Below are positions 21,438 to 28,578 of a DNA stretch of 64,000 bases, piece after piece. Positions within the stretch are counted from its first letter, which is position 1; each line of letters begins with the position of its first letter. This stretch comes from Patescibacteria group bacterium (GTDB taxonomy: Bacteria > Patescibacteriota > Kazan-3B-28). A model generated the notes under the pieces. It saw only the letters and a program-made list of their open reading frames with translations, had not been told where the DNA came from and ran no database searches. Both the position numbers and the translations under genes were made by a program. The stretch is from contig JBAZNQ010000001.1 in NCBI GenBank assembly GCA_041649135.1, positions 361,983-425,982 on the forward strand, read 5' to 3'.

Positions 21438-22724
21438 TTACTGTGTCACCATCTCAACCAACCTATCAATAGCCTTACGCGAACCGAGCATACGTTGCAG
21501 TCGCTCACGACCATTACTATTTTTCCCATATTCCTTTTCAATATTTTCCCCATCCTGCGGATAGATTTCCTTCAACTTTTTCATTTCCGCTTCCACATCC
21601 TCCTCTGTTGCTTCGATCTTCTCCGCATCGCGAAACGCCTCCAACGCCAATCCGATCCGAACTCTCTGCTCGGCTTGTTCCCGCCATTGGCTCTTCAAAC
21701 CCGCTTCATTGACATTCGCTTTTTTCAAATAGTCCTCAAAACTCATACCGGAATGTTCCGCCTGATGTTTCAAATCATGCACCATACTGTCTAATTCCTG
21801 CTCTATCATTTCCTCCGGCAAATCGATCTTCGCGACCTTCACCAATTCCAATAGCGCATTCTCCCGCACACCCTCTTCCGCTTTCTTAGTCGCTTCCTCT
21901 TCCAAATATTTTTTAATATCCGCCTTCAACACTTCCAGATTTTCCTGCCCCGCATGCTTCTTGGCAAACTCATCATTGATTTCCGGATAATTCACCGCCT
22001 TCACCAAATTCATTTTCACCTTGAACATGGCTTTCTTACCCGCTAAATCTTTATTGTGATAATCGGCTGGGAAAGTTACTTCCACATCTTTCTCTTCGCC
22101 CTTCCCCAGTCCCACTAATCCTTCTTCAAATCCGGGAATAAAAACTTTATCTCCCAAAATCAACGGATGCTTCTTGGAAGCACCGCCTTCAAATGGCTTG
22201 CCGTCTACAAATCCATCAAAATCAATTTCCGCCCAATCACCCATCTGCGCGACCCGTTCCACTTCCTGAAACTCCACCGCTTTCTTTTGCAAACTTTTCA
22301 ACACCCCTTCCACCTGCTCATCCCCTACGCTCTCAACTCTCTTCTCTAGTTTTATCTTCGAATAATCTCCCAACACCACTTCTGGCAATACCGCCACCTC
22401 CGCCGTAAATTCCAGCGGCTCGTTTAAATTCCCTTTTTCCACAGAAATTTTCGGGAATGCGATCGGCCGCAAATTCTCCTGCCGAACGGCAGAAGGATAA
22501 AACTGCTCCACCGCCAGCTCGATCGCTTCGCTAATCACGCGGGCTTCGCCCGCTTTTGCGATCACCACATCCCTCGGCGCCTTCCCCTCCCTAAATCCGT
22601 CTATCTTAATCGTGGTAGAAACTTTTTCTGCCGCCTTATCCAAAACCCCCTGCCACTCCGTCATCTCCAGAGCAATGGCTAATTTAACATGATTCTTCTC
22701 CCCGTTAGATTTAGTGATTTTCAT
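21438..22724 (-). CDS. tig: Trigger factor
   Basis: Trigger-factor domain order and motifs; FKBP-like PPIase region FDGFVDGKPFEGG; classic tig...clpP neighbourhood. Confidence 0.85.
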   Translation of the reverse strand: MKITKSNGEKNHVKLAIALEMTEWQGVLDKAAEKVSTTIKIDGFREGKAPRDVVIAKAGEARVISEAIELAVEQFYPSAVRQENLRPIAFPKISVEKGNLNEPLEFTAEVAVLPEVVLGDYSKIKLEKRVESVGDEQVEGVLKSLQKKAVEFQEVERVAQMGDWAEIDFDGFVDGKPFEGGASKKHPLILGDKVFIPGFEEGLVGLGKGEEKDVEVTFPADYHNKDLAGKKAMFKVKMNLVKAVNYPEINDEFAKKHAGQENLEVLKADIKKYLEEEATKKAEEGVRENALLELVKVAKIDLPEEMIEQELDSMVHDLKHQAEHSGMSFEDYLKKANVNEAGLKSQWREQAEQRVRIGLALEAFRDAEKIEATEEDVEAEMKKLKEIYPQDGENIEKEYGKNSNGRERLQRMLGSRKAIDRLVEMVTQ

Positions 22725-22794
22725 ACCCAGATATATTGAGCTGAAGCCTTTATAAAGTCAATTTTACAGTACCTAGTATGCCATAATAATAGAT

Positions 22795-24126
22795 ATGGAA
22801 CCTAATAGCTTATTTAATCCAGCCACCACCATGCCTGCGCTAGCGGGGAGAGAGATTAACATTGCTCCATTGGGCGCCACCAACATGGCTCGAGAATTCG
22901 ATGGATCATGGGATTTTCGTGGCGCCAAGACCAAATCTTATACGCATGGGCTCCATAGTTACCCCGCTATGTTTATTCCGCAGGTAGCACGACGGCTGGT
23001 TCAATCATACAGTCGACCGGGTGACAAAATTTGCGACATTTTTTGCGGCTCAGGTACTACCCTCGTTGAAAGTATTGTTTTGGGACGCGATGCAATCGGA
23101 ATAGACCTAAACCCGCTCGCCGTTTTTTTAGCAAAAGTAAAAACCACTCCAATTAATCCCTCCCTTCTCACAAAAGCATACTTTCATATCGTCGAAAAGT
23201 ATCATCAGCCCGACATTGTAGGCATTACAATACCAGAATTTCCTAATCTAAATTTCTGGTTTAACGAAACTACCATCGCACAACTGGCCAAGCTCAAATA
23301 TGTCATTCGCAAAACCACATCTGGAGATACAAGAGATTTCTTCATGGCAACTTTCAGTGAGGTAGTTCGTTTAGTATCAAACACCAAGAATGGTGAATTT
23401 AAGCTAGTGCGAATGTCGAGTGAAAAACTACGAGACTGGAATCCAAATGTCCTAAATATGTTCCGCAAGAAAGCCGAGAACAATATTGCGGGTATGTCAG
23501 ATTTTTTTCACGAAGTACCCAGTGATCACCGTGCCACAATCATCATCGGAGACTCTTCTCAAGACAATAAAATACCAAAAAACTCCATAGACTTGATACT
23601 CACCTCTCCGCCATATGGTGATAGCCGGACAACAGTGGCATACGGACAATTCTCAAGATTATCGTCACAGTGGATAGATTTATTCGAAGACCCCTCCGAG
23701 GCATCAAAAGTAGACAATCAACTGCTCGGTGGCAACAAGATTGGTGATTTATCACACAATCTACAATCCGTACACTTAATAGCCGCTTTAGAGACTATCG
23801 CACAACAAGACATCTCTCGAGCCAAAGAAGTATTGAGCTTTTTTATTGGGTTAAACCGATGCGTTGAACAAGCGCACTCCATCTTAAAACCCAACCGCCA
23901 CATGTGTGTTGTAATCGGAAATCGTCTAGTAAAACAAGTCCGCATACCCACAGACATCATTATTGCTGAACTTGGAAACGAAATCGGTTTTACATGCGAG
24001 ACCATTATGGCTCGCAATATCCCCGGAAAAAAGATGCCAATACGGAACTCTCCAACCAATATAGCGGGACAACTGGCAGATACCATGAATCAAGAAAGTA
24101 TCGTCGTTCTTCGTAAACTCAAATAA
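22795..24126 (+). CDS. Type II DNA methyltransferase (N4-cytosine or N6-adenine, SPPY; alpha-like motif order I...IV)
   Basis: Motif I DIFCGSGTT at ~aa 80; motif IV TSPPYGD at ~aa 270. Confidence 0.75.
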   Translation: MEPNSLFNPATTMPALAGREINIAPLGATNMAREFDGSWDFRGAKTKSYTHGLHSYPAMFIPQVARRLVQSYSRPGDKICDIFCGSGTTLVESIVLGRDAIGIDLNPLAVFLAKVKTTPINPSLLTKAYFHIVEKYHQPDIVGITIPEFPNLNFWFNETTIAQLAKLKYVIRKTTSGDTRDFFMATFSEVVRLVSNTKNGEFKLVRMSSEKLRDWNPNVLNMFRKKAENNIAGMSDFFHEVPSDHRATIIIGDSSQDNKIPKNSIDLILTSPPYGDSRTTVAYGQFSRLSSQWIDLFEDPSEASKVDNQLLGGNKIGDLSHNLQSVHLIAALETIAQQDISRAKEVLSFFIGLNRCVEQAHSILKPNRHMCVVIGNRLVKQVRIPTDIIIAELGNEIGFTCETIMARNIPGKKMPIRNSPTNIAGQLADTMNQESIVVLRKLK

Positions 24127-24805
24127 GTTTACGAAATGTGCTAAAAACTTCTTTGAAGTCCTTTAAAGGCAATCTAAACGCTGAGCCATGGTCATGAGGC
24201 CTGCCGTCAGGATACCTCCCCATCCTAATGTCGTATTTCATCTTTGCAATAAATCGGTCAAAGTTACCACCCTTACACAGATATGCCTCTTTGTAGGCAA
24301 ACTGTTCTTTGCCGTTATTGTCTTTCTTGGCTTCTGCCAACACTAAAATAACACCTCGACCTACCTTTTTGATAAAGCTATCTTCCAGTTTTGTCCTATC
24401 ATAAGAAACCACCAGTGACTTATGTTTAAACACAATTAGTTCACTATCTTTCTTGTTATCGACCAACCGATATCCTTGCTTATTGGCAACCCGCGTCACT
24501 GTTTGATGCAACACCTTTTTCCCATCTGTAGGACGAGGATACCCAAACTTATCCAATAATTTAGAATTCAAACCAGTATCCGGCTTACGAGTAAACAAAG
24601 TCACCATCGAACCGGTCTCGCGCCTTTGAGCCTTGAGCTCCATCACGCCAAAATCTGGCAGAGCAATATTGTTTTCCGTTATTCCAAGATAATCCTCAAT
24701 AGTCTTGCCGATCCCCGTATTGTGCAATCGGTTTGACTTTATCCAACCCTTGTTGGAAAGATCTTTTAGTTTTTTCTTTATCTGAACAAAAGTAAACTTT
24801 TTCAT
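24119..24805 (-). CDS. Type II restriction endonuclease, MvaI/BcnI-like (PD-(D/E)XK)
   Basis: ITENNIALPDFGVMELK (D-x-E-x-K) and C-terminal GRPHDHG...RLP match my memory of the BcnI/MvaI family. Convergent with the methylase, overlapping by 8 nt. Confidence 0.6.
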   Translation of the reverse strand: MKKFTFVQIKKKLKDLSNKGWIKSNRLHNTGIGKTIEDYLGITENNIALPDFGVMELKAQRRETGSMVTLFTRKPDTGLNSKLLDKFGYPRPTDGKKVLHQTVTRVANKQGYRLVDNKKDSELIVFKHKSLVVSYDRTKLEDSFIKKVGRGVILVLAEAKKDNNGKEQFAYKEAYLCKGGNFDRFIAKMKYDIRMGRYPDGRPHDHGSAFRLPLKDFKEVFSTFRKLI

Positions 24806-25026
24806 AAATTCTCCATAAAAAAATTAATCGACTTTTTATACATACGCGAAAGTTTGTTGAGTTCGATAATATCCAGCCGTCTCTCTCCCGCCTCCACCTT
24901 CGACACAAACGACTGTGGCTTCCCTAATTTTTGAGCCACCTCTTTTTGCGTTAAACCGGCAGACAATCTTGCCTGCTTTAGTTTCTCCACTAACTTCTGA
25001 TATTCCCCCGAGTAAATTGATTTCAT
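24802..25026 (-). CDS. HTH XRE-family controller (C) protein of the R-M system
   Basis: LTQKEVAQKLGKPQSFVSKVE helix-turn-helix. Its 3' end overlaps the start of the endonuclease gene by 4 nt. Confidence 0.7.
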   Translation of the reverse strand: MKSIYSGEYQKLVEKLKQARLSAGLTQKEVAQKLGKPQSFVSKVEAGERRLDIIELNKLSRMYKKSINFFMENL

Positions 25027-25090
25027 AAATGGGAGCTCAACGCCCCCATGCTATATCCCAAAATCGAATATCCCAAAACAGGATATCTTT

Positions 25091-25834
25091 TTATCCCATA
25101 GTCTCAATATCCTCGTAAACTTTGGTCAATAGATCAGTATAATATGTCACTGCGCTCTTAATAGACGCTAGCTTCAAACGAAGACTAGTTGAAAGATCGC
25201 CTTTCATAAACGTTTTCTGAATATACTCAAAATCTTTTGGACTATAATGCTTGCCATCACCATGCACATAGCTGTTACGTCGCGAATACAACCAATCTGC
25301 ATACCCAATAATACTATTCGGTTGTTCTTTGCTACGCTGAGTCTTGGCAAATATCTTCCCGTCCGCACCCACTCTCGGTTGATTACTCACAGCCTTCCAA
25401 GCCAAACATTTATCTAAAATTTTACACAGTTTCACGGAATGTCTTTGGCGTAGCAGATTGCCACGGGTTAGATCTTTCATTTTATCCACTACTGTCTCGT
25501 AAGAACGGTCCTTCATAAAAATTATTTCGAAGACTTCTTTTTTAGAAATTGGCTCCTCATCCACCAGCCTCAAAATTTCTTCTCTCAAATTGGGATTATT
25601 GATTGACAACCAAAGCAATAACTTGTCCACCAGATAATCAAAACGATCGACCAAATTCACATAAACAAGCTTTTGAAGATGTTTACGGTTCGCTTCAGTC
25701 TTGATTTTGTTCAGCTCAGCAATTGCCGATTGAATATCATTATGGCAAAAATCCAAAAAAACCTCTATGTCATTTAGAGGCTCTATGGTAGCCAAGTTGC
25801 CTACATCAATTTTGTGAAGAGATTTTTCTGACAT
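25091..25834 (-). CDS. HEPN-motif protein (putative RNase toxin / Abi effector)
   Basis: C-terminal RRNSYVHG (R-x4-H HEPN motif). Located in the defence island. Confidence 0.5.
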   Translation of the reverse strand: MSEKSLHKIDVGNLATIEPLNDIEVFLDFCHNDIQSAIAELNKIKTEANRKHLQKLVYVNLVDRFDYLVDKLLLWLSINNPNLREEILRLVDEEPISKKEVFEIIFMKDRSYETVVDKMKDLTRGNLLRQRHSVKLCKILDKCLAWKAVSNQPRVGADGKIFAKTQRSKEQPNSIIGYADWLYSRRNSYVHGDGKHYSPKDFEYIQKTFMKGDLSTSLRLKLASIKSAVTYYTDLLTKVYEDIETMG

Positions 25835-25839
25835 ATCAA

Positions 25840-26034
25840 TCAGGATGAAACGTTTCTCCTAATAAACAGCGAATCAACAAATTTGTCCTTCTCTGAATCC
25901 GACATTGAAGGATCAAGAGACTCCTTTAGAATCCGACGCGCCTCATCAAGAGAGATAAGATCACTTGCCATAAGAGTATTGATAACATTCAGTATCAATT
26001 TGATAGGATCAAATGGTCCTAGTAATACATTCAT
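25840..26034 (-). CDS. 64-aa protein co-transcribed upstream of the HEPN gene (candidate antitoxin or partner)
   Basis: Own TATAAT and RBS aggag; ends 5 nt before the HEPN start. Confidence 0.45.
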   Translation of the reverse strand: MNVLLGPFDPIKLILNVINTLMASDLISLDEARRILKESLDPSMSDSEKDKFVDSLFIRRNVSS

Positions 26035-26229
26035 GGATGCACTCCTAACAGTAAATTATAATCACTTCCCTTTTGCCCAGATTATACCCCCGTCTCAACC
26101 TCCTGTATAATCGGCTCTCTTACCCCCATGTAATACACCAACGCCACCCTCACCCAAAGTGCTATAATGCCTGCGTCCAGATTGTAACTTTCCAGTCAGG
26201 CGCAGGCTAAACCAAAAGGAGTAAGACTT

Positions 26230-26583
26230 ATGTCCACAGGAATGAACGCCTCTGAACCGGTCACCGAAATCTTCGGAAAAACCAACATCGGTGGCTACGC
26301 CATCTGTCCAGCCGCTAATCTGGAAGATGGTCGGCACTTTGAGAAGCTCGCCATCCCCGAATGCGAGTTGGAACGACTAGCCGATAGGCTCCACCTTACT
26401 TCACAGGAGCTCCAAGAACTGCTGACCACCAAGGCTGGCGAGCTCACGCTCAAACAGCTCGTCGCTGTTCTGCATTTCATCCGCACCCTCTGGAGTTCAG
26501 ACGACGGCAAGGTCGTTAACTTCGAGCTCTCCGTCGGTCCTATCGACCCAGAGTTCCTCGGCAACTACGACCCGCCCCAGTAA
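26230..26583 (+). CDS. Hypothetical protein, divergent from the HEPN operon
   Basis: Two TATAAT boxes; RBS aaaggag; terminator at 26600-26640. Confidence 0.5.
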   Translation: MSTGMNASEPVTEIFGKTNIGGYAICPAANLEDGRHFEKLAIPECELERLADRLHLTSQELQELLTTKAGELTLKQLVAVLHFIRTLWSSDDGKVVNFELSVGPIDPEFLGNYDPPQ

Positions 26584-26599
26584 TGCTCCGCATCCAAAA

Positions 26600-26640
26600 A
26601 CGAAACCTCGGTCCGCGCCAACCGAGGTTTTTATTTTTGT
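26600..26640. terminator. Bidirectional terminator (aaacctcggt...accgaggttt + T-run)
   Basis: Inverted repeat flanked by A and T runs. Confidence 0.7.
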
Positions 26641-26657
26641 CCCATCGATCACCCTAC

Positions 26658-27239
26658 CTAAACCAATTCAAAATGAAAATATTCCCCCCTCGAACCCAAT
26701 TTAAATCCATGACTAGCCATTAGGTCAACAAGATATTTTTGCAATTCCCCGCAACGTCTTCCTTCTTCGTCTACGCTCTCATCATAAAAACCCATCAGCA
26801 AAGATTCCGGCCCATCATTTAATTTTCTTAAATAGATTTCTGAATTTGTCTTCTCGTCCCAAATGGCAACATCCACCGCTCTCCCCGTGCTATGCGGTAT
26901 TGTTTTTATATTTAAAAGCCGATCTGTCATTTCTTGACCGTATTTCTCCACTCTTTTTCGATAAACCAAATTATAAATTTCGGACGACCTATAGCCTTCT
27001 TTGATGTATAGCCGCCAACCCCTTTTCTGCAGCTCCTTATCTACCTCTAAAAGTGCTGGAATAATTGCCTCATCAACATAAATCTGGTCATCAATCATCC
27101 CCGCTTCTATGAGTTCCTCCTTGGTCAAATTGTAATCTGCATATCTGTTCCAATAAAAACTGCTCCCCAGCAGCCCATATGCGCGAATCGACACCAAATG
27201 AAGATCTTTCATATCCCCAGTATACCAACCCCCCGCCAC
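26658..27239 (-). CDS. D-Ala-D-Ala dipeptidase / peptidase M15 (VanX-like)
   Basis: SxHxxGxAVD (IPHSTGRAVD) and ExxH (EYFHFE) motifs. Confidence 0.65.
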   Translation of the reverse strand: MAGGWYTGDMKDLHLVSIRAYGLLGSSFYWNRYADYNLTKEELIEAGMIDDQIYVDEAIIPALLEVDKELQKRGWRLYIKEGYRSSEIYNLVYRKRVEKYGQEMTDRLLNIKTIPHSTGRAVDVAIWDEKTNSEIYLRKLNDGPESLLMGFYDESVDEEGRRCGELQKYLVDLMASHGFKLGSRGEYFHFELV

Positions 27240-27613
27240 TCACCTCTTCCCCAACCCAAAACCCCACTCCGAAAGTTAGCCATCTACCGAAGCATTTTCA
27301 ACTAAAAAACGGATTCGCTATTTTTTCTCAACCAAGAGATAGATAGACAGTACGCCGATCGCCGCCGCCAAGCCTATCATCACCCAAGCTAAGTTGGTCT
27401 CTCCGATATAAGCAATCTCATTAACGATAACTCCGACTGCAATAACGAGAGCCAGCCAAATTAAATACTTCATACTTATATTTTATAGATAATTAATATC
27501 CTAGCCAAGTAGAAGCTTCTAAAAAATATCTTCCACTCCAAAATCAGCCCCACCTTTGATTTCCCATACCGAGGGTGTAGAATACTGGTAACTTTCGCTC
27601 AAGGAGGTGATTT

Positions 27614-28216
27614 ATGAGCGGACTGTTCATTGGCATTTCAGTAGACCCAGACCAAGCGGTTGCATGTCTAGACTCCGCTAGACAGATTTGGTCACGCCAT
27701 CCCTATATCCGCTGGTTCTCACCAGAATCATTACACTGCACTTTGGCCGACGTAGAGATTGAAACCAAGCAGTTTCACTGCGTCGCCCGCACAATGATGC
27801 AAGGTGTGATGGAACGAGTTAGTCTGGCATACCAGCAATTCTCAACAACCGTAAACCAATTCGCATGGTTCGGTTCAAAAAAGATACTGGTACTGACTAA
27901 CCCACAGGGCAACACCAACCTCAAATTGGCGCAGCTGTCCCGTACTTTAATTCGACGACTTCGAGGTCAAAGACTTAAAGTCACGCAGGGGCAACCATTC
28001 TGTGCCCACGTCAGTCTGGGCGAGCGGGATATGGCTGAAACCGTTGTGGATATTCACAGCTCCATCTATAACCCGCCCCCCACTCAACAACTTGTTCTTC
28101 GCCTCAACGTGAACAATCTTAGTCTCTACCGAGTCATCGCCCACCGCCAATACGAGATTGTATATACCGTTGAGCTCAAAACGCCCAAACAGGCATGCGA
28201 ACTGGCAATGGGATAG
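27614..28216 (+). CDS. 2H phosphoesterase (LigT/ThpR-like 2'-5' RNA ligase / cyclic phosphodiesterase)
   Basis: Two H-x-T/S-x motifs (LHCTLA and AHVSLG). Confidence 0.65.
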   Translation: MSGLFIGISVDPDQAVACLDSARQIWSRHPYIRWFSPESLHCTLADVEIETKQFHCVARTMMQGVMERVSLAYQQFSTTVNQFAWFGSKKILVLTNPQGNTNLKLAQLSRTLIRRLRGQRLKVTQGQPFCAHVSLGERDMAETVVDIHSSIYNPPPTQQLVLRLNVNNLSLYRVIAHRQYEIVYTVELKTPKQACELAMG

Positions 28217-28227
28217 ATAAGCAAAAG

Positions 28228-28252
28228 CCGAGGCATACGCCTCGGCTTTTAT
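28228..28252. terminator. Hairpin aaagccgaggc...gcctcggcttt
   Basis: Perfect inverted repeat flanked by A and T runs. Confidence 0.65.
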
Positions 28253-28378
28253 ACTTCTCCCTCGTCCCTAGGTGGAGATGGGAGCAGGTCAGCTTGGTTC
28301 TGTCATCCGACAGAACTCGACTTCGTTGACTGACCGTTGAGGGAAGAACACACCTCGTTCTTTCCTCAAGAGCGTTAG

Positions 28379-28578
28379 TTAGACAGCGGCTTCGTCAGAC
28401 TTGACCTCTTCACCAGCCACAGCTGGAGTTTCGGCTTCTTCGACTTCGTCATCAGCCTCGTCAGTTCCGGCCGCATCAGCAGCTGGAGCGTCATCAGTTA
28501 CAACAGCGTCATCGGCTGGGGTAACTGGAGTCTCAACGATCTCTTCATTTTCCAATGGGGCGTTGTTCATGTCAGTCA
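28379..28578 (-). CDS. Small highly acidic protein (~66 aa, D/E/A/T-rich)
   Basis: Start MTDMNN with RBS ggag. The ORF track offers a longer N-terminus, which I reject. Confidence 0.45.

What the first reader, a model, noticed from the sequence alone, without database searches (positions are those of the whole stretch)
25091..26034. HEPN-motif protein with a co-transcribed 64-aa upstream ORF, next to an R-M system: candidate toxin-antitoxin or abortive-infection module
The 247-aa protein carries a C-terminal RRNSYVHG, which matches the HEPN RNase R-x4-H motif. A 64-aa ORF ends 5 nt before its start. That small ORF has its own TATAAT (gtgattataat) and RBS aggag, with no terminator between the two genes. 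This is the layout of two-gene HEPN toxin modules. However, the small partner is not a MNT nucleotidyltransferase (it is too short and has no GS/DxD motif), so the pairing would be a new variant. A 2H phosphoesterase (LigT-like, able to process 2',3'-cyclic phosphate ends) lies 1.8 kb away, but that link is purely speculative.
Basis: partly seen in the sequence, partly recalled or inferred. Interest (0 to 1): 0.7.

Follow-up and report, generated by a model that had tools for sequence, protein, structure and literature searches.

The report
HEPN-like RNase with swappable small partner
A Patescibacteria genome carries, in a foreign-looking island next to a restriction-modification system, a two-gene cassette: a previously unclassified HEPN-type (probable RNase) protein and a 64-residue partner that elsewhere sits in front of membrane proteins or a protease; it is a plausible but untested toxin-antitoxin or phage-defence module.

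Summary
On the minus strand a 64-aa ORF (26034..25840) ends 5 nt before a 247-aa ORF (25834..25091) that carries RRNSYVHG.

The 247-aa protein matches no curated family above threshold. Three lines of evidence place it in the HEPN superfamily:
- R186-N187-x3-H191 is invariant in 45 homologues and lies at the end of a helix, where HEPN motifs lie.
- 14 of 45 members give sub-threshold hits to PF18735 (HEPN_RiboL-PSP), and 13 of 45 to PADLOC DzbB.

The 64-aa ORF is a real gene: an acidic three-helix protein with 94 clusters. It accompanies only the closest HEPN clade. More distant family members, found in several phyla, stand alone. The same small protein also precedes a 2-TM protein family and, at one locus, a trypsin-like protease. 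This is partner swapping of the kind seen in TA and defence modules.

In 4 of 9 distinct contexts the pair abuts a type II R-M system, of three different families. In this window the pair and the R-M genes form the lowest-GC stretch. The LigT link has no support.

Verdict: a new variant of a known kind. Toxicity and defence are untested.

The parts
26081..26109 (-). Promoter-like site, TATACA-17 nt-TATAAT, upstream of the small ORF
   Evidence: Consensus scan, 10 of 12 matches. Such sites are not enriched over shuffles, so this is plausible only.
26042..26065 (-). Second -10-like element, gtgatTATAAT (26065-26055), and Shine-Dalgarno AGGAG (26046-26042), 7 nt before the ATG of the small ORF
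   Evidence: Read directly from the minus-strand sequence.
25840..26034 (-). Small partner gene: 64 aa, acidic (pI 4.8), predicted three-helix protein. It belongs to a family of 60-69-aa proteins that precede interchangeable downstream genes.
   Evidence: ORF. Conserved at 52-73% identity upstream of every close HEPN homologue. 94 clusters. AF2 pLDDT 82 with helices 10-23, 29-39 and 46-57. pI.
25091..25834 (-). HEPN-like protein: 247 aa, basic (pI 8.75), a member of a small family that no library has curated
25259..25282 (-). Codons for RRNSYVHG (residues 185-192). This is the R-N-x3-H HEPN motif, at the C-terminal end of helix 175-191.
   Evidence: R185, R186, N187, V190 and H191 are invariant in 45 sequences. 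Helix boundaries. The position matches the published HEPN description (PMC3710099).
25753..25834 (-). Codons for the N-terminal ~27-residue extension of the HEPN protein. It is present only in homologues that have the small partner and contains I-D-V-G-N-L.
   Evidence: Alignment A1. N-termini listed. Motif count 25 of 27 in the near clade against 2 of 67 in the distant clade.
25053..25082 (.). Two direct repeats, ATATCCCAAAA, plus an inverted ATATCC/GGATAT, in the 64-nt gap between the HEPN stop and the C-protein gene. This is a candidate C-box operator of the neighbouring R-M system.
   Evidence: the repeat finder family D1. Sequence. The function is inferred.
24802..25026 (-). C (controller) protein of the R-M system: 74 aa, HTH_3
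   Evidence: Pfam PF01381, E 2.9e-14. PADLOC Control_protein hits.
24119..24805 (-). Type II restriction endonuclease of the MvaI/BcnI family. It overlaps the C gene by 4 nt.
   Evidence: PF15515, E 9e-39. PADLOC REase_II.
22795..24126 (+). N4/N6 DNA methyltransferase, convergent with the REase gene and overlapping it by 8 nt
   Evidence: PF01555, E 4e-21. PADLOC MTase_II, E 3e-128.

Best explanation
The two ORFs form a self-contained two-gene conflict module of the toxin-antitoxin / abortive-infection type. It arrived by horizontal transfer together with a type II R-M cassette.

The 247-aa protein is a divergent HEPN-superfamily protein. It probably acts as a metal-independent RNase, with R186, N187 and H191 as the catalytic motif, and probably works as a dimer as other HEPN RNases do.

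The 64-aa acidic three-helix protein is made from the same transcript, and translation of the HEPN gene is coupled to it. I propose that it binds the HEPN protein, probably through the N-terminal extension that only partnered HEPN proteins have. Binding would keep the RNase inactive or tie its activation to a signal. Loss or displacement of the small protein would then release RNA cleavage and stop growth. Phage infection, loss of the island, or failure of the neighbouring R-M system could each cause this.

Shown here: gene reality and conservation, the pairing, motif invariance, HEPN-like fold, partner swapping, R-M adjacency and foreign composition.

Inferred only: RNase activity, toxicity, physical binding, which partner neutralises which, and any role in defence.
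For: HEPN identity:
- R186-N187-x3-H191 is invariant in 45 homologues that fall as low as 31% identity.
- The motif ends helix 175-191 and is followed by a loop. Anantharaman et al. place Rx4-6H in the same position, with N, D or H after the R and an insert between helices 2 and 3 (PMC3710099).
- 14 of 45 members hit PF18735 HEPN_RiboL-PSP over the motif-bearing region (best E 0.0013). Two hit HEPN_Apea and one hits HEPN_MAE_28990.
- 13 of 45 hit PADLOC DzbB (best E 2.4e-5) and two hit RTasHEPN.

Pairing:
- The small ORF is present and abuts or overlaps the HEPN gene in all near-clade loci. The spacing ranges from a 5-nt gap to a 29-nt overlap.
- There is no usable Shine-Dalgarno sequence for the HEPN gene.
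- The charges are opposite: pI 4.8 against 8.75.

Modularity:
- The same small-protein family (52-66% identical) precedes a 2-TM protein family, with 1-8-nt gaps or a short overlap, in L057-L068.
- In L056 it precedes a trypsin-like protease (Trypsin_2, E 2e-7).
- Its C-terminal tail differs by partner type: F/Y at position 52 in 31 of 94 clusters.
- Partner swapping is a recognised hallmark of TA and defence modules (PMC8832971, PMC10440598).

Mobility and defence context:
- The pair is adjacent to type II R-M systems of three families in 4 of 9 distinct contexts. These are MvaI/BcnI here, EcoO109I in L003, and NgoPII in L049/L052/L055 and, divergently, in L053. Co-directional gaps are 15-64 nt.
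- Other contexts hold a rolling-circle Rep gene, GIY-YIG genes, HepT/MNT pairs and tRNA-Gln.
- The island 22795-26034 has GC 0.409. That ties for the lowest of all 3.3-kb windows in the 64 kb (second of 304 by rank; mean 0.466, sd 0.018).
- The family is rare and patchy: 41 loci among 185,579 species genomes.
Against: - No curated HEPN model reaches threshold. The best PF18735 score is 18.6 bits against a cut-off of 28.4, and the window protein itself gives no HEPN hit.
- Most of the HEPN family has no small partner and no conserved neighbour. Four Rhodobacterales (Roseobacter/Paracoccus-group) loci keep the gene next to uvrB, which suggests stable inheritance. The protein is therefore not intrinsically dependent on an antitoxin and may not be toxic.
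- Nothing was found in phage, plasmid or viral-contig collections.
- In Dazbog, the only tested system with a weakly similar protein, deleting dzbB could not be transformed (possibly toxic). That makes DzbB look like the protective partner rather than the toxin.
Confidence: 0.5

Rival explanations
1. R-M-coupled back-up nuclease (PrrC/EcoprrI logic). The HEPN protein and its small partner would be an accessory of the adjacent type II R-M system. They would be co-transcribed with it and held silent while the R-M system works. They would be released as a suicidal RNase when a phage disables restriction or when the R-M genes are lost.
For: Three different R-M families sit next to the pair. Several are co-directional with gaps of 15-64 nt, which looks operon-like: L003 is M-R-small-HEPN, L049 and L055 are R-M-small-HEPN, and the window is small-HEPN-C-R with no terminator between. 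The whole block in the window shares one low-GC composition. At least 16 HEPN clades are already known to be linked to R-M systems (PMC3710099).
Against: Five of nine distinct contexts have no R-M genes. The R-M families and orientations differ, and L053 is divergent, which argues against a specific protein-protein coupling. The C/REase unit in the window has its own operator-like repeats and promoter-like site. There is no ABC-ATPase or other sensor domain as in PrrC/RloC.
Confidence: 0.2
2. Non-toxic role. The HEPN-like protein would be an RNA-binding, RNA-processing or regulatory protein, or the protective/regulatory half of a system, as DzbB appears to be. The small protein would be an adaptor or chaperone that it shares with membrane proteins. 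The cassette would not kill or arrest the cell.
For: Most family members are solitary genes in housekeeping surroundings, and the position next to uvrB is kept in four Rhodobacterales (Roseobacter/Paracoccus-group) genomes. A dzbB deletion was not transformable, so the weakly similar DzbB behaves as a protector. Distant relatives carry a C-terminal winged-helix-like region, and a TM-wHTH gene follows the HEPN gene in L007 and L055, which hints at regulation. The most common partner of the small protein is a 2-TM protein of unknown function.
Against: An invariant R-N-x3-H motif is the signature of catalytically active HEPN RNases; non-catalytic HEPN domains usually lose it (PMC3710099). The extreme rarity, patchy phyletic spread and foreign composition fit an accessory or conflict gene. 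Swapping between a HEPN protein, a membrane protein and a protease resembles effector exchange.
Confidence: 0.2
3. The protein is not HEPN at all. It would be an unrelated helical-bundle protein whose RRNxxVH happens to resemble the motif.
Confidence: 0.07

Closest known systems
RiboL-PSP-HEPN family (Pfam PF18735) and the C-terminal region of DzbB of the Dazbog defence system (PADLOC PDLC03836)
   Same: These are the only curated profiles that members of the family hit repeatedly: 14 of 45 and 13 of 45 members. The matched stretch covers the motif-bearing C-terminal half. PF18735-type HEPN domains occur in phage-defence systems such as PD-T4-2 and ApeA (PMC10952713).
   Different: All hits are below the curated threshold, and the window protein itself gives none. 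There is no fusion to an L-PSP endoRNase. No DUF262/ParB partner (DzbA-like) appears in any neighbourhood. The architecture differs: DzbB is about 341 aa with the similarity at its C-terminus, whereas here the domain makes up the whole protein.
HepT-MntA (HEPN-MNT, type VII toxin-antitoxin)
   Different: The partner here is a 64-aa three-helix protein, not a nucleotidyltransferase. It lies upstream and is translationally coupled. The residue two positions after H191 is D, not the tyrosine that MntA AMPylates (RRNSYVHGD). The HEPN protein is about 110 residues longer, with a large insert between core helices 2 and 3.
R-M-linked HEPN proteins (PrrC/RloC, ApeA, EC042_2821 and others; Anantharaman et al. 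2013)
   Same: A HEPN gene lies next to, and co-directional with, restriction-modification genes. The literature interprets this layout as a second, RNA-directed line of defence.
   Different: Those clades are mostly tied to type I or other multi-subunit systems, or are fused to ATPase, REase or wHTH domains. Here the R-M systems are small type II cassettes of three unrelated families, the link is facultative (4 of 9 contexts), and the HEPN protein carries its own small partner.
Hyperpromiscuous antitoxin domains (Panacea/PanA; NetFlax network)
   Same: One small partner family is found upstream of unrelated downstream proteins: a HEPN-like protein, a 2-TM protein and a trypsin-like protease. 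A variable tail correlates with partner type. This is the same partner-swapping logic as in PMC8832971 and PMC10440598.
   Different: There is no sequence or fold relationship to Panacea (DUF4065). The protein is far smaller (about 60 aa). Neutralisation has not been shown, and it is not known which gene, if any, is the toxin.

Membership tests
HEPN superfamily | A conserved Rx4-6H motif with a polar residue (N, D or H) directly after the R | tested here: met
   R186-N187-S-Y-V-H191. R186, N187 and H191 are invariant in 45 homologues. The criterion comes from PMC3710099.
HEPN superfamily | The motif lies at the end of core helix 3 and the start of the loop to helix 4, in an all-alpha up-down bundle with an insert between helices 2 and 3 | tested here: met
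   In the AF2 model (pLDDT 92.6), helix 175-191 ends with the motif and a loop follows at 192-198. The long helices are 11-43, 47-79 and 222-246. Residues 80-174 form the insert. This rests on a model, not an experimental structure.
HEPN superfamily | Structural similarity to solved HEPN domains | tested here: met
HEPN superfamily | A conserved acidic residue in helix 2, usually as Ex3[KR] | tested here: inconclusive
   D66 is invariant, and D70 is nearly invariant and followed by K71, in helix 47-79. The spacing is not the canonical Ex3[KR], and proximity to the motif could not be measured.
HEPN superfamily | A match to a curated HEPN profile above its threshold | tested here: not met
   The window protein gives no HEPN hit. 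Among homologues the best PF18735 score is 18.6 bits against a cut-off of 28.4, although 14 of 45 members give sub-threshold hits.
HEPN superfamily | Metal-independent endoribonuclease activity that depends on R and H | not testable with these tools
   This needs biochemistry.
HepT-MntA (type VII TA) | An adjacent MNT nucleotidyltransferase antitoxin | tested here: not met
   The partner is a 64-aa three-helix protein with no NTase profile hit. No MNT gene lies in the window locus.
HepT-MntA (type VII TA) | An Rx4HxY motif whose tyrosine is AMPylated | tested here: not met
   The sequence is R-N-S-Y-V-H-G-D, and the residue two after H191 is D193. The tyrosine criterion comes from the mutant names in 7ae2 (H107A-Y109F) and from my own knowledge of the HepT literature.
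Type II toxin-antitoxin module (generic) | Two small co-directional genes, abutting or overlapping, with the upstream product acidic and the downstream product basic | tested here: met
   A 5-nt gap in the window and 17-29-nt overlaps in homologues. pI 4.8 against 8.75.
Type II toxin-antitoxin module (generic) | An antitoxin with a DNA-binding domain (RHH, HTH, AbrB and the like) for autoregulation | tested here: not met
   No Pfam, NCBIfam or PADLOC domain. The three-helix model has no significant structural analogue.
Type II toxin-antitoxin module (generic) | Obligate co-occurrence of the two genes | tested here: not met
   More than 30 distant HEPN homologues lack the small gene. About two thirds of small-protein clusters are of the non-HEPN-partner type by C-terminal signature.
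Type II toxin-antitoxin module (generic) | Toxicity of one product that the other neutralises | not testable with these tools
   This needs expression experiments.
Dazbog (DzbA/DzbB) | A two-gene system that includes a DUF262 (ParB-like) protein | tested here: not met
   No DUF262 appears among neighbours of the window locus or of any homologous locus. There is only weak DzbB profile similarity.
PrrC/RloC-type R-M-linked anticodon nuclease | An N-terminal ABC-ATPase domain, with the gene embedded in a type I R-M operon | tested here: not met
   No ATPase domain. The neighbouring R-M systems are type II.

The most novel reading that the evidence does not exclude
The ~60-aa 'GPFDP' protein would define a previously undescribed, phylum-spanning class of two-gene modules. 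In this class one small cytosolic partner is combined with interchangeable effectors: most often a 2-TM membrane protein, in one Patescibacteria clade a HEPN RNase, and occasionally a trypsin-like protease. The partner would recognise the effectors through a short shared N-terminal peptide (G-x-I-[DEN]-L). The HEPN version would have been recruited repeatedly as an RNA-directed second layer next to type II R-M cassettes in CPR bacteria, which have few other known defences.
Probability: 0.3. Interest if true: 0.72.

Novelty: new variant of a known kind. Interest (0 to 1): 0.55.

Why it matters
HEPN RNases are the effectors of many immune and toxin systems, including Cas13, Csm6, RnlA, HepT, PrrC and ApeA. 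How each one is held in check is the central mechanistic question.

This locus offers three things:
- A HEPN branch that no library recognises.
- A new kind of partner: a 64-aa three-helix protein rather than a nucleotidyltransferase, an ATPase or a DNA-binding antitoxin.
- Evidence that the same partner serves unrelated downstream proteins, which makes it a candidate for a new promiscuous regulator or antitoxin family.

It also adds a candidate second defence layer to Patescibacteria (CPR), whose small genomes are thought to rely mainly on R-M systems. All components are short and easy to test in E. coli.

If toxicity or defence is not found, the value falls to an annotation improvement: three unannotated protein families with defined boundaries and motifs.

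Tried and rejected
- Direct profile searches of the 247-aa and 64-aa proteins against Pfam, NCBIfam, PADLOC and PHROGs gave nothing meaningful.
- Sequence search of the PDB with the single protein gave nothing. With the family profile, the only hit was 9iaq_A, an XRE-type HTH protein, at E 0.02 over the insert region. I judge it spurious because the predicted secondary structure there is not a helix-turn-helix.
- Foldseek against the PDB had no hit below E 0.5, although HepT chains recur in the list.
- The AlphaFold-database library was not available.
- hhalign of the family profile against single HepT and AbiU2 sequences taken from neighbouring loci gave less than 4% probability. This is uninformative, because single-sequence templates are too weak.
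- A search for a conserved neighbour across 41 genome loci found none apart from uvrB synteny within the Rhodobacterales loci.
- An HMM search for the small ORF upstream of distant homologues found none. The short upstream ORFs seen there (for example 59 aa in L010) look like noise, and in L009 the upstream 'ORF' is a tRNA-Gln gene.
- The LigT/2H link is rejected. The 2H gene is on the other strand with three called genes in between, has the host's GC content, and has no counterpart near any homologue.
- A type III (RNA antitoxin) or other ncRNA explanation is rejected: there are no tandem repeats and no Rfam match in 22000-28500.
- Phage or plasmid carriage was not found in IMG/VR, INPHARED or PLSDB.
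Full report
**1. What is in the sequence**

The finding lies on the minus strand. A 64-aa ORF (26034..25840) is followed after 5 nt by a 247-aa ORF (25834..25091). Residues 185-192 of the large protein read RRNSYVHG (window 25282..25259).

Upstream of the small ORF are two -10-like elements. One is TATAAT at 26060-26055 within 'gtgattataat'. The other is TATACA-17-TATAAT at 26109..26081. AGGAG lies 7 nt before the ATG. Promoter-like matches are not enriched over shuffles, so the promoter is only plausible.

The large gene has no Shine-Dalgarno sequence at a usable distance. In homologues its start overlaps the end of the small ORF by 17-29 nt. This points to translational coupling.

Downstream on the same strand, after a 64-nt gap, come a 74-aa HTH_3 controller protein and an MvaI/BcnI-family restriction endonuclease. 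The gap holds two ATATCCCAAAA repeats and an ATATCC/GGATAT inverted repeat. A convergent N4/N6 methyltransferase completes the R-M system. The organism is a Patescibacteria (CPR) metagenome-assembled genome.

**2. Is the large protein HEPN?**

It hits no model of Pfam, NCBIfam, PADLOC or PHROGs, and no PDB sequence. It belongs to a small, compact family. There are 94 clusters in the 5.8-billion-protein set and 103 representatives at 50% identity among 1.84 billion proteins. There are 41 loci among 185,579 species genomes, spread over Patescibacteria, Alpha-, Gamma- and Zetaproteobacteria (including Burkholderiales and Nitrosospira lineages), Verrucomicrobiota, Nitrospirota and others.

In an alignment of 45 members (down to 31% identity), R185, R186, N187, V190 and H191 are invariant. 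So are R50, H52, Q54, D66, K135 and R154; R131, H132 and S133 are nearly invariant (≥90%).

The AlphaFold2 model is confident (pLDDT 92.6, pTM 0.89). It is all-alpha, with long helices at 11-43, 47-79, 175-191 and 222-246. The motif forms the last turn of helix 175-191 and a loop follows. [quoted passage not shown] Here the insert is residues 80-174.

Scanning every member of the alignment separately shows a recurrent sub-threshold signal. Fourteen of 45 hit PF18735 HEPN_RiboL-PSP (best E 0.0013), over the motif-bearing part of both protein and profile. Two hit HEPN_Apea and one hits HEPN_MAE_28990. The next most frequent unrelated family is hit by only three members. In PADLOC, 13 of 45 hit DzbB of Dazbog (best E 2.4e-5) and two hit RTasHEPN.

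Taken together I put HEPN membership at about 0.85. I put catalytic RNase activity at about 0.6, inferred from motif invariance alone.

**3. Is the 64-aa ORF a gene, and is it a partner?**

tblastn and an HMM find it directly upstream of the HEPN gene in every locus of the nearest clade (HEPN identity 52% or more). These are L003-L008, L011, L044-L055 and the window. It is found in none of the more than 30 distant loci.

It is 52-73% identical across these loci, which matches the divergence of the HEPN gene. A profile search finds 94 clusters of 55-100 aa, most of them 60-69 aa, with invariant G6, D9, L13 and K49.

The model shows three helices (10-23, 29-39, 46-57; pLDDT 82) and has no informative structural analogue. 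The protein is acidic (pI 4.8) and the HEPN protein is basic (pI 8.75).

HEPN proteins that have the partner also carry an N-terminal extension of about 25 residues that the solitary ones lack.

**4. Partner swapping**

Loci found through the small protein show that it is not tied to HEPN.
- In L057, L058, L059/L060, L061/L062, L063 and L064/L065 it is followed, after a 1-8-nt gap (by a short overlap in L058), by members of one family of 87-120-aa proteins with two predicted transmembrane helices.
- In L067/L068 the same 2-TM domain carries a C-terminal winged-helix-like tail.
- In L056 the small protein is followed after 15 nt by a trypsin-like protease (Trypsin_2, E 2e-7).
- In L069 it is followed by a single-TM coiled-coil protein.
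- In L066 nothing is adjacent.
- In L061 the order is small, 2-TM, then a HEPN_AbiU2 gene.

The first ~45 residues of the small protein stay 52-66% identical across partner types. The C-terminal helix differs: F/Y at position 52 and F at 57 in the HEPN-linked type. Thirty-one of 94 clusters have an aromatic residue at position 52.

The N-terminal extension of partnered HEPN proteins (…K-I-D-V-x-N-L…, G-K-I-E-L/F in some) resembles the N-terminus of the 2-TM partners (G-x-I-[DEN]-L-x-x-V). This pattern was defined after the fact and is short, so I treat it only as a lead for the docking site.

One small upstream partner exchanged among unrelated downstream proteins is the behaviour described for promiscuous antitoxins and defence modules (PMC8832971, PMC10440598).

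**5. Genomic context**

Among nine distinct near-clade contexts with enough flanking sequence, four have a type II R-M system immediately adjacent, and three unrelated R-M families are involved.
- The window has C plus MvaI/BcnI REase, 64 nt downstream.
- L003 has N4/N6 MTase, then EcoO109I REase, then a 35-nt gap, then the small gene and the HEPN gene.
- L049/L050/L052 and L055 have NgoPII REase, then C5 MTase, then a 15-36-nt gap, then the small gene and the HEPN gene.
- L053 has the NgoPII/C5 pair divergent from the cassette.

If about 3% of gene positions abut an R-M gene (my assumption), four of nine has a probability of about 1e-4. However, the NgoPII cases may share one ancestral linkage, so I count at least three independent associations.

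The other contexts contain a rolling-circle Rep gene, GIY-YIG genes, HepT/MNT pairs and nearby tRNA-Gln genes, or ordinary genes.

In the window, the block 22795-26034 (MTase, REase, C, HEPN, small) has GC 0.409. That ties for the lowest of all 3.3-kb windows in the 64 kb (second of 304 by rank; mean 0.466, sd 0.018). GC rises sharply at 26.0-26.6 kb. The five genes therefore look like one acquired island.

Distant, solitary family members show no defence enrichment. Four Rhodobacterales (Roseobacter/Paracoccus-group) loci keep the gene next to uvrB. Nothing was found on viral contigs, phages or plasmids.

**6. Interpretation**

The best-supported reading (confidence 0.5) is a two-gene conflict module.
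- The effector is a HEPN-type RNase.
- Its synthesis is coupled to a small acidic partner that binds it, probably at the N-terminal extension, and controls it.
- The pair is carried with type II R-M cassettes as a composite defence or addiction island.

The shown and inferred steps are separated in the explanation section.

The main rivals are as follows.
- A genuinely R-M-dependent back-up nuclease on the PrrC model (0.2). The tight co-directional spacing favours it. The facultative and heterogeneous R-M linkage disfavours it.
- A non-toxic RNA-binding or regulatory role (0.2). Solitary and syntenic family members favour it, as does the observation that a dzbB deletion could not be transformed in the Dazbog study. 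The invariant catalytic motif and the rare, patchy, foreign-looking distribution disfavour it.
- The protein is not HEPN (0.07).

Whether the small protein is an antitoxin, a sensor or an adaptor cannot be decided. The existence of many partner-less HEPN homologues argues against a simple obligate antitoxin.

**7. Comparison with what is known**

The module works like a HEPN toxin module and its structure resembles HepT. It is not a HepT-MntA system: it has no MNT, no Rx4HxY tyrosine, a different gene order and a larger protein.

Its nearest sequence relatives are the RiboL-PSP-HEPN family and the C-terminal part of DzbB. It lacks their defining partners (L-PSP fusion, DUF262).

R-M-linked HEPN genes are a known theme, with at least 16 clades. 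This family, its link to small type II cassettes, and its 64-aa partner are not in any library searched here.

**8. Verdict**

Novelty: a new variant of a known kind, meaning an unclassified HEPN branch with a new, promiscuous small partner. Interest is 0.55. It is testable and mechanistically open, but it sits within a well-populated class, and all functional claims are still inferred.

Noticed in passing
L057 1268-1758; L058 1049-1550; L059 5001-5490; L061 5001-5449; L063 5001-5482; L064 5001-5563; L067 2455-3176: The small-protein family most often precedes, with a 1-8-nt gap (or, in L058, a short overlap), an unannotated family of 87-120-aa proteins with two predicted TM helices. L067 has an extra C-terminal winged-helix-like tail (183 aa). 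This cassette has no Pfam or PADLOC annotation and occurs in several phyla, including a 4.7-Mb contig whose neighbouring genes carry Por_Secre_tail (T9SS-type) domains.
   Followed up: partly
L056 5001-5918: Here the small-protein homologue is followed after 15 nt by a trypsin-like serine protease (Trypsin_2, E 2e-7; weak PADLOC hits to RT-Protease and LmuA protease regions). This is a third, unrelated downstream partner.
   Followed up: partly
L061 5001-6048 (same in L062): The order is small protein, 87-aa 2-TM protein, then a HEPN_AbiU2 gene (196 aa). A ClpB-like AAA+ protein and a Pif1 helicase follow. The locus looks like a defence island in which the small/2-TM pair sits beside a different HEPN family.
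   Followed up: no
L007 1160-1456; L055 3240-3536; proteins P0168, P0175, P0180: A 98-aa protein with an N-terminal TM segment and a winged helix (HTH_24/DeoR-like) starts 16 nt after the HEPN gene in one sub-clade. Distant HEPN-family members of 323-351 aa carry a weak C-terminal DeoR-like wHTH. A wHTH therefore recurs with this family in three architectures.
   Followed up: partly
window 25027-25090: The 64-nt gap before the C-protein gene holds two direct ATATCCCAAAA repeats (25053-25082), an ATATCC...GGATAT inverted repeat and a weak promoter-like site (25107..25080). These are a likely C-box operator. The C gene has no obvious Shine-Dalgarno sequence.
   Followed up: partly
window 22795-26034: The R-M genes and the HEPN pair together form the lowest-GC 3.3-kb stretch of the window (0.409 against a mean of 0.466). 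They lie beside the trigger-factor gene, and GC jumps sharply at about 26.0-26.6 kb. They are probably one horizontally acquired island.
   Followed up: yes
L009 5913-5986; L004 3408-3480; L005 103-175: A tRNA-Gln(ttg) gene lies 45 nt to 2.3 kb upstream of the HEPN gene in three Patescibacteria loci. In L004/L046 the interval holds a rolling-circle Rep gene and a 652-aa unknown gene. This suggests insertion at a tRNA hotspot.
   Followed up: no
L008 5947-6737: In this Moraniibacteriota MAG the HEPN gene is split into two overlapping ORFs (201 and 70 aa), while the small ORF is intact. This is either a decaying copy or an assembly error.
   Followed up: no
L018, L021, L029, L030 (downstream convergent gene): In four Rhodobacterales (Roseobacter/Paracoccus-group) genomes the solitary HEPN-family gene is convergent with uvrB. 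The synteny is conserved across genera, which is unusual for a mobile toxin gene.
   Followed up: no
window 26230-26583 (+): A 117-aa ORF lies divergent from the small gene. Its GC is unusually high (0.559; GC3 0.68), it has no family hit, and it is called as a gene in the source assemblies. Its function is unknown.
   Followed up: no
L049 146-340; L052 105-314: An unannotated 64-69-aa gene precedes the NgoPII REase gene by 4 nt. It sits where a controller protein would be but has no HTH profile hit.
   Followed up: no
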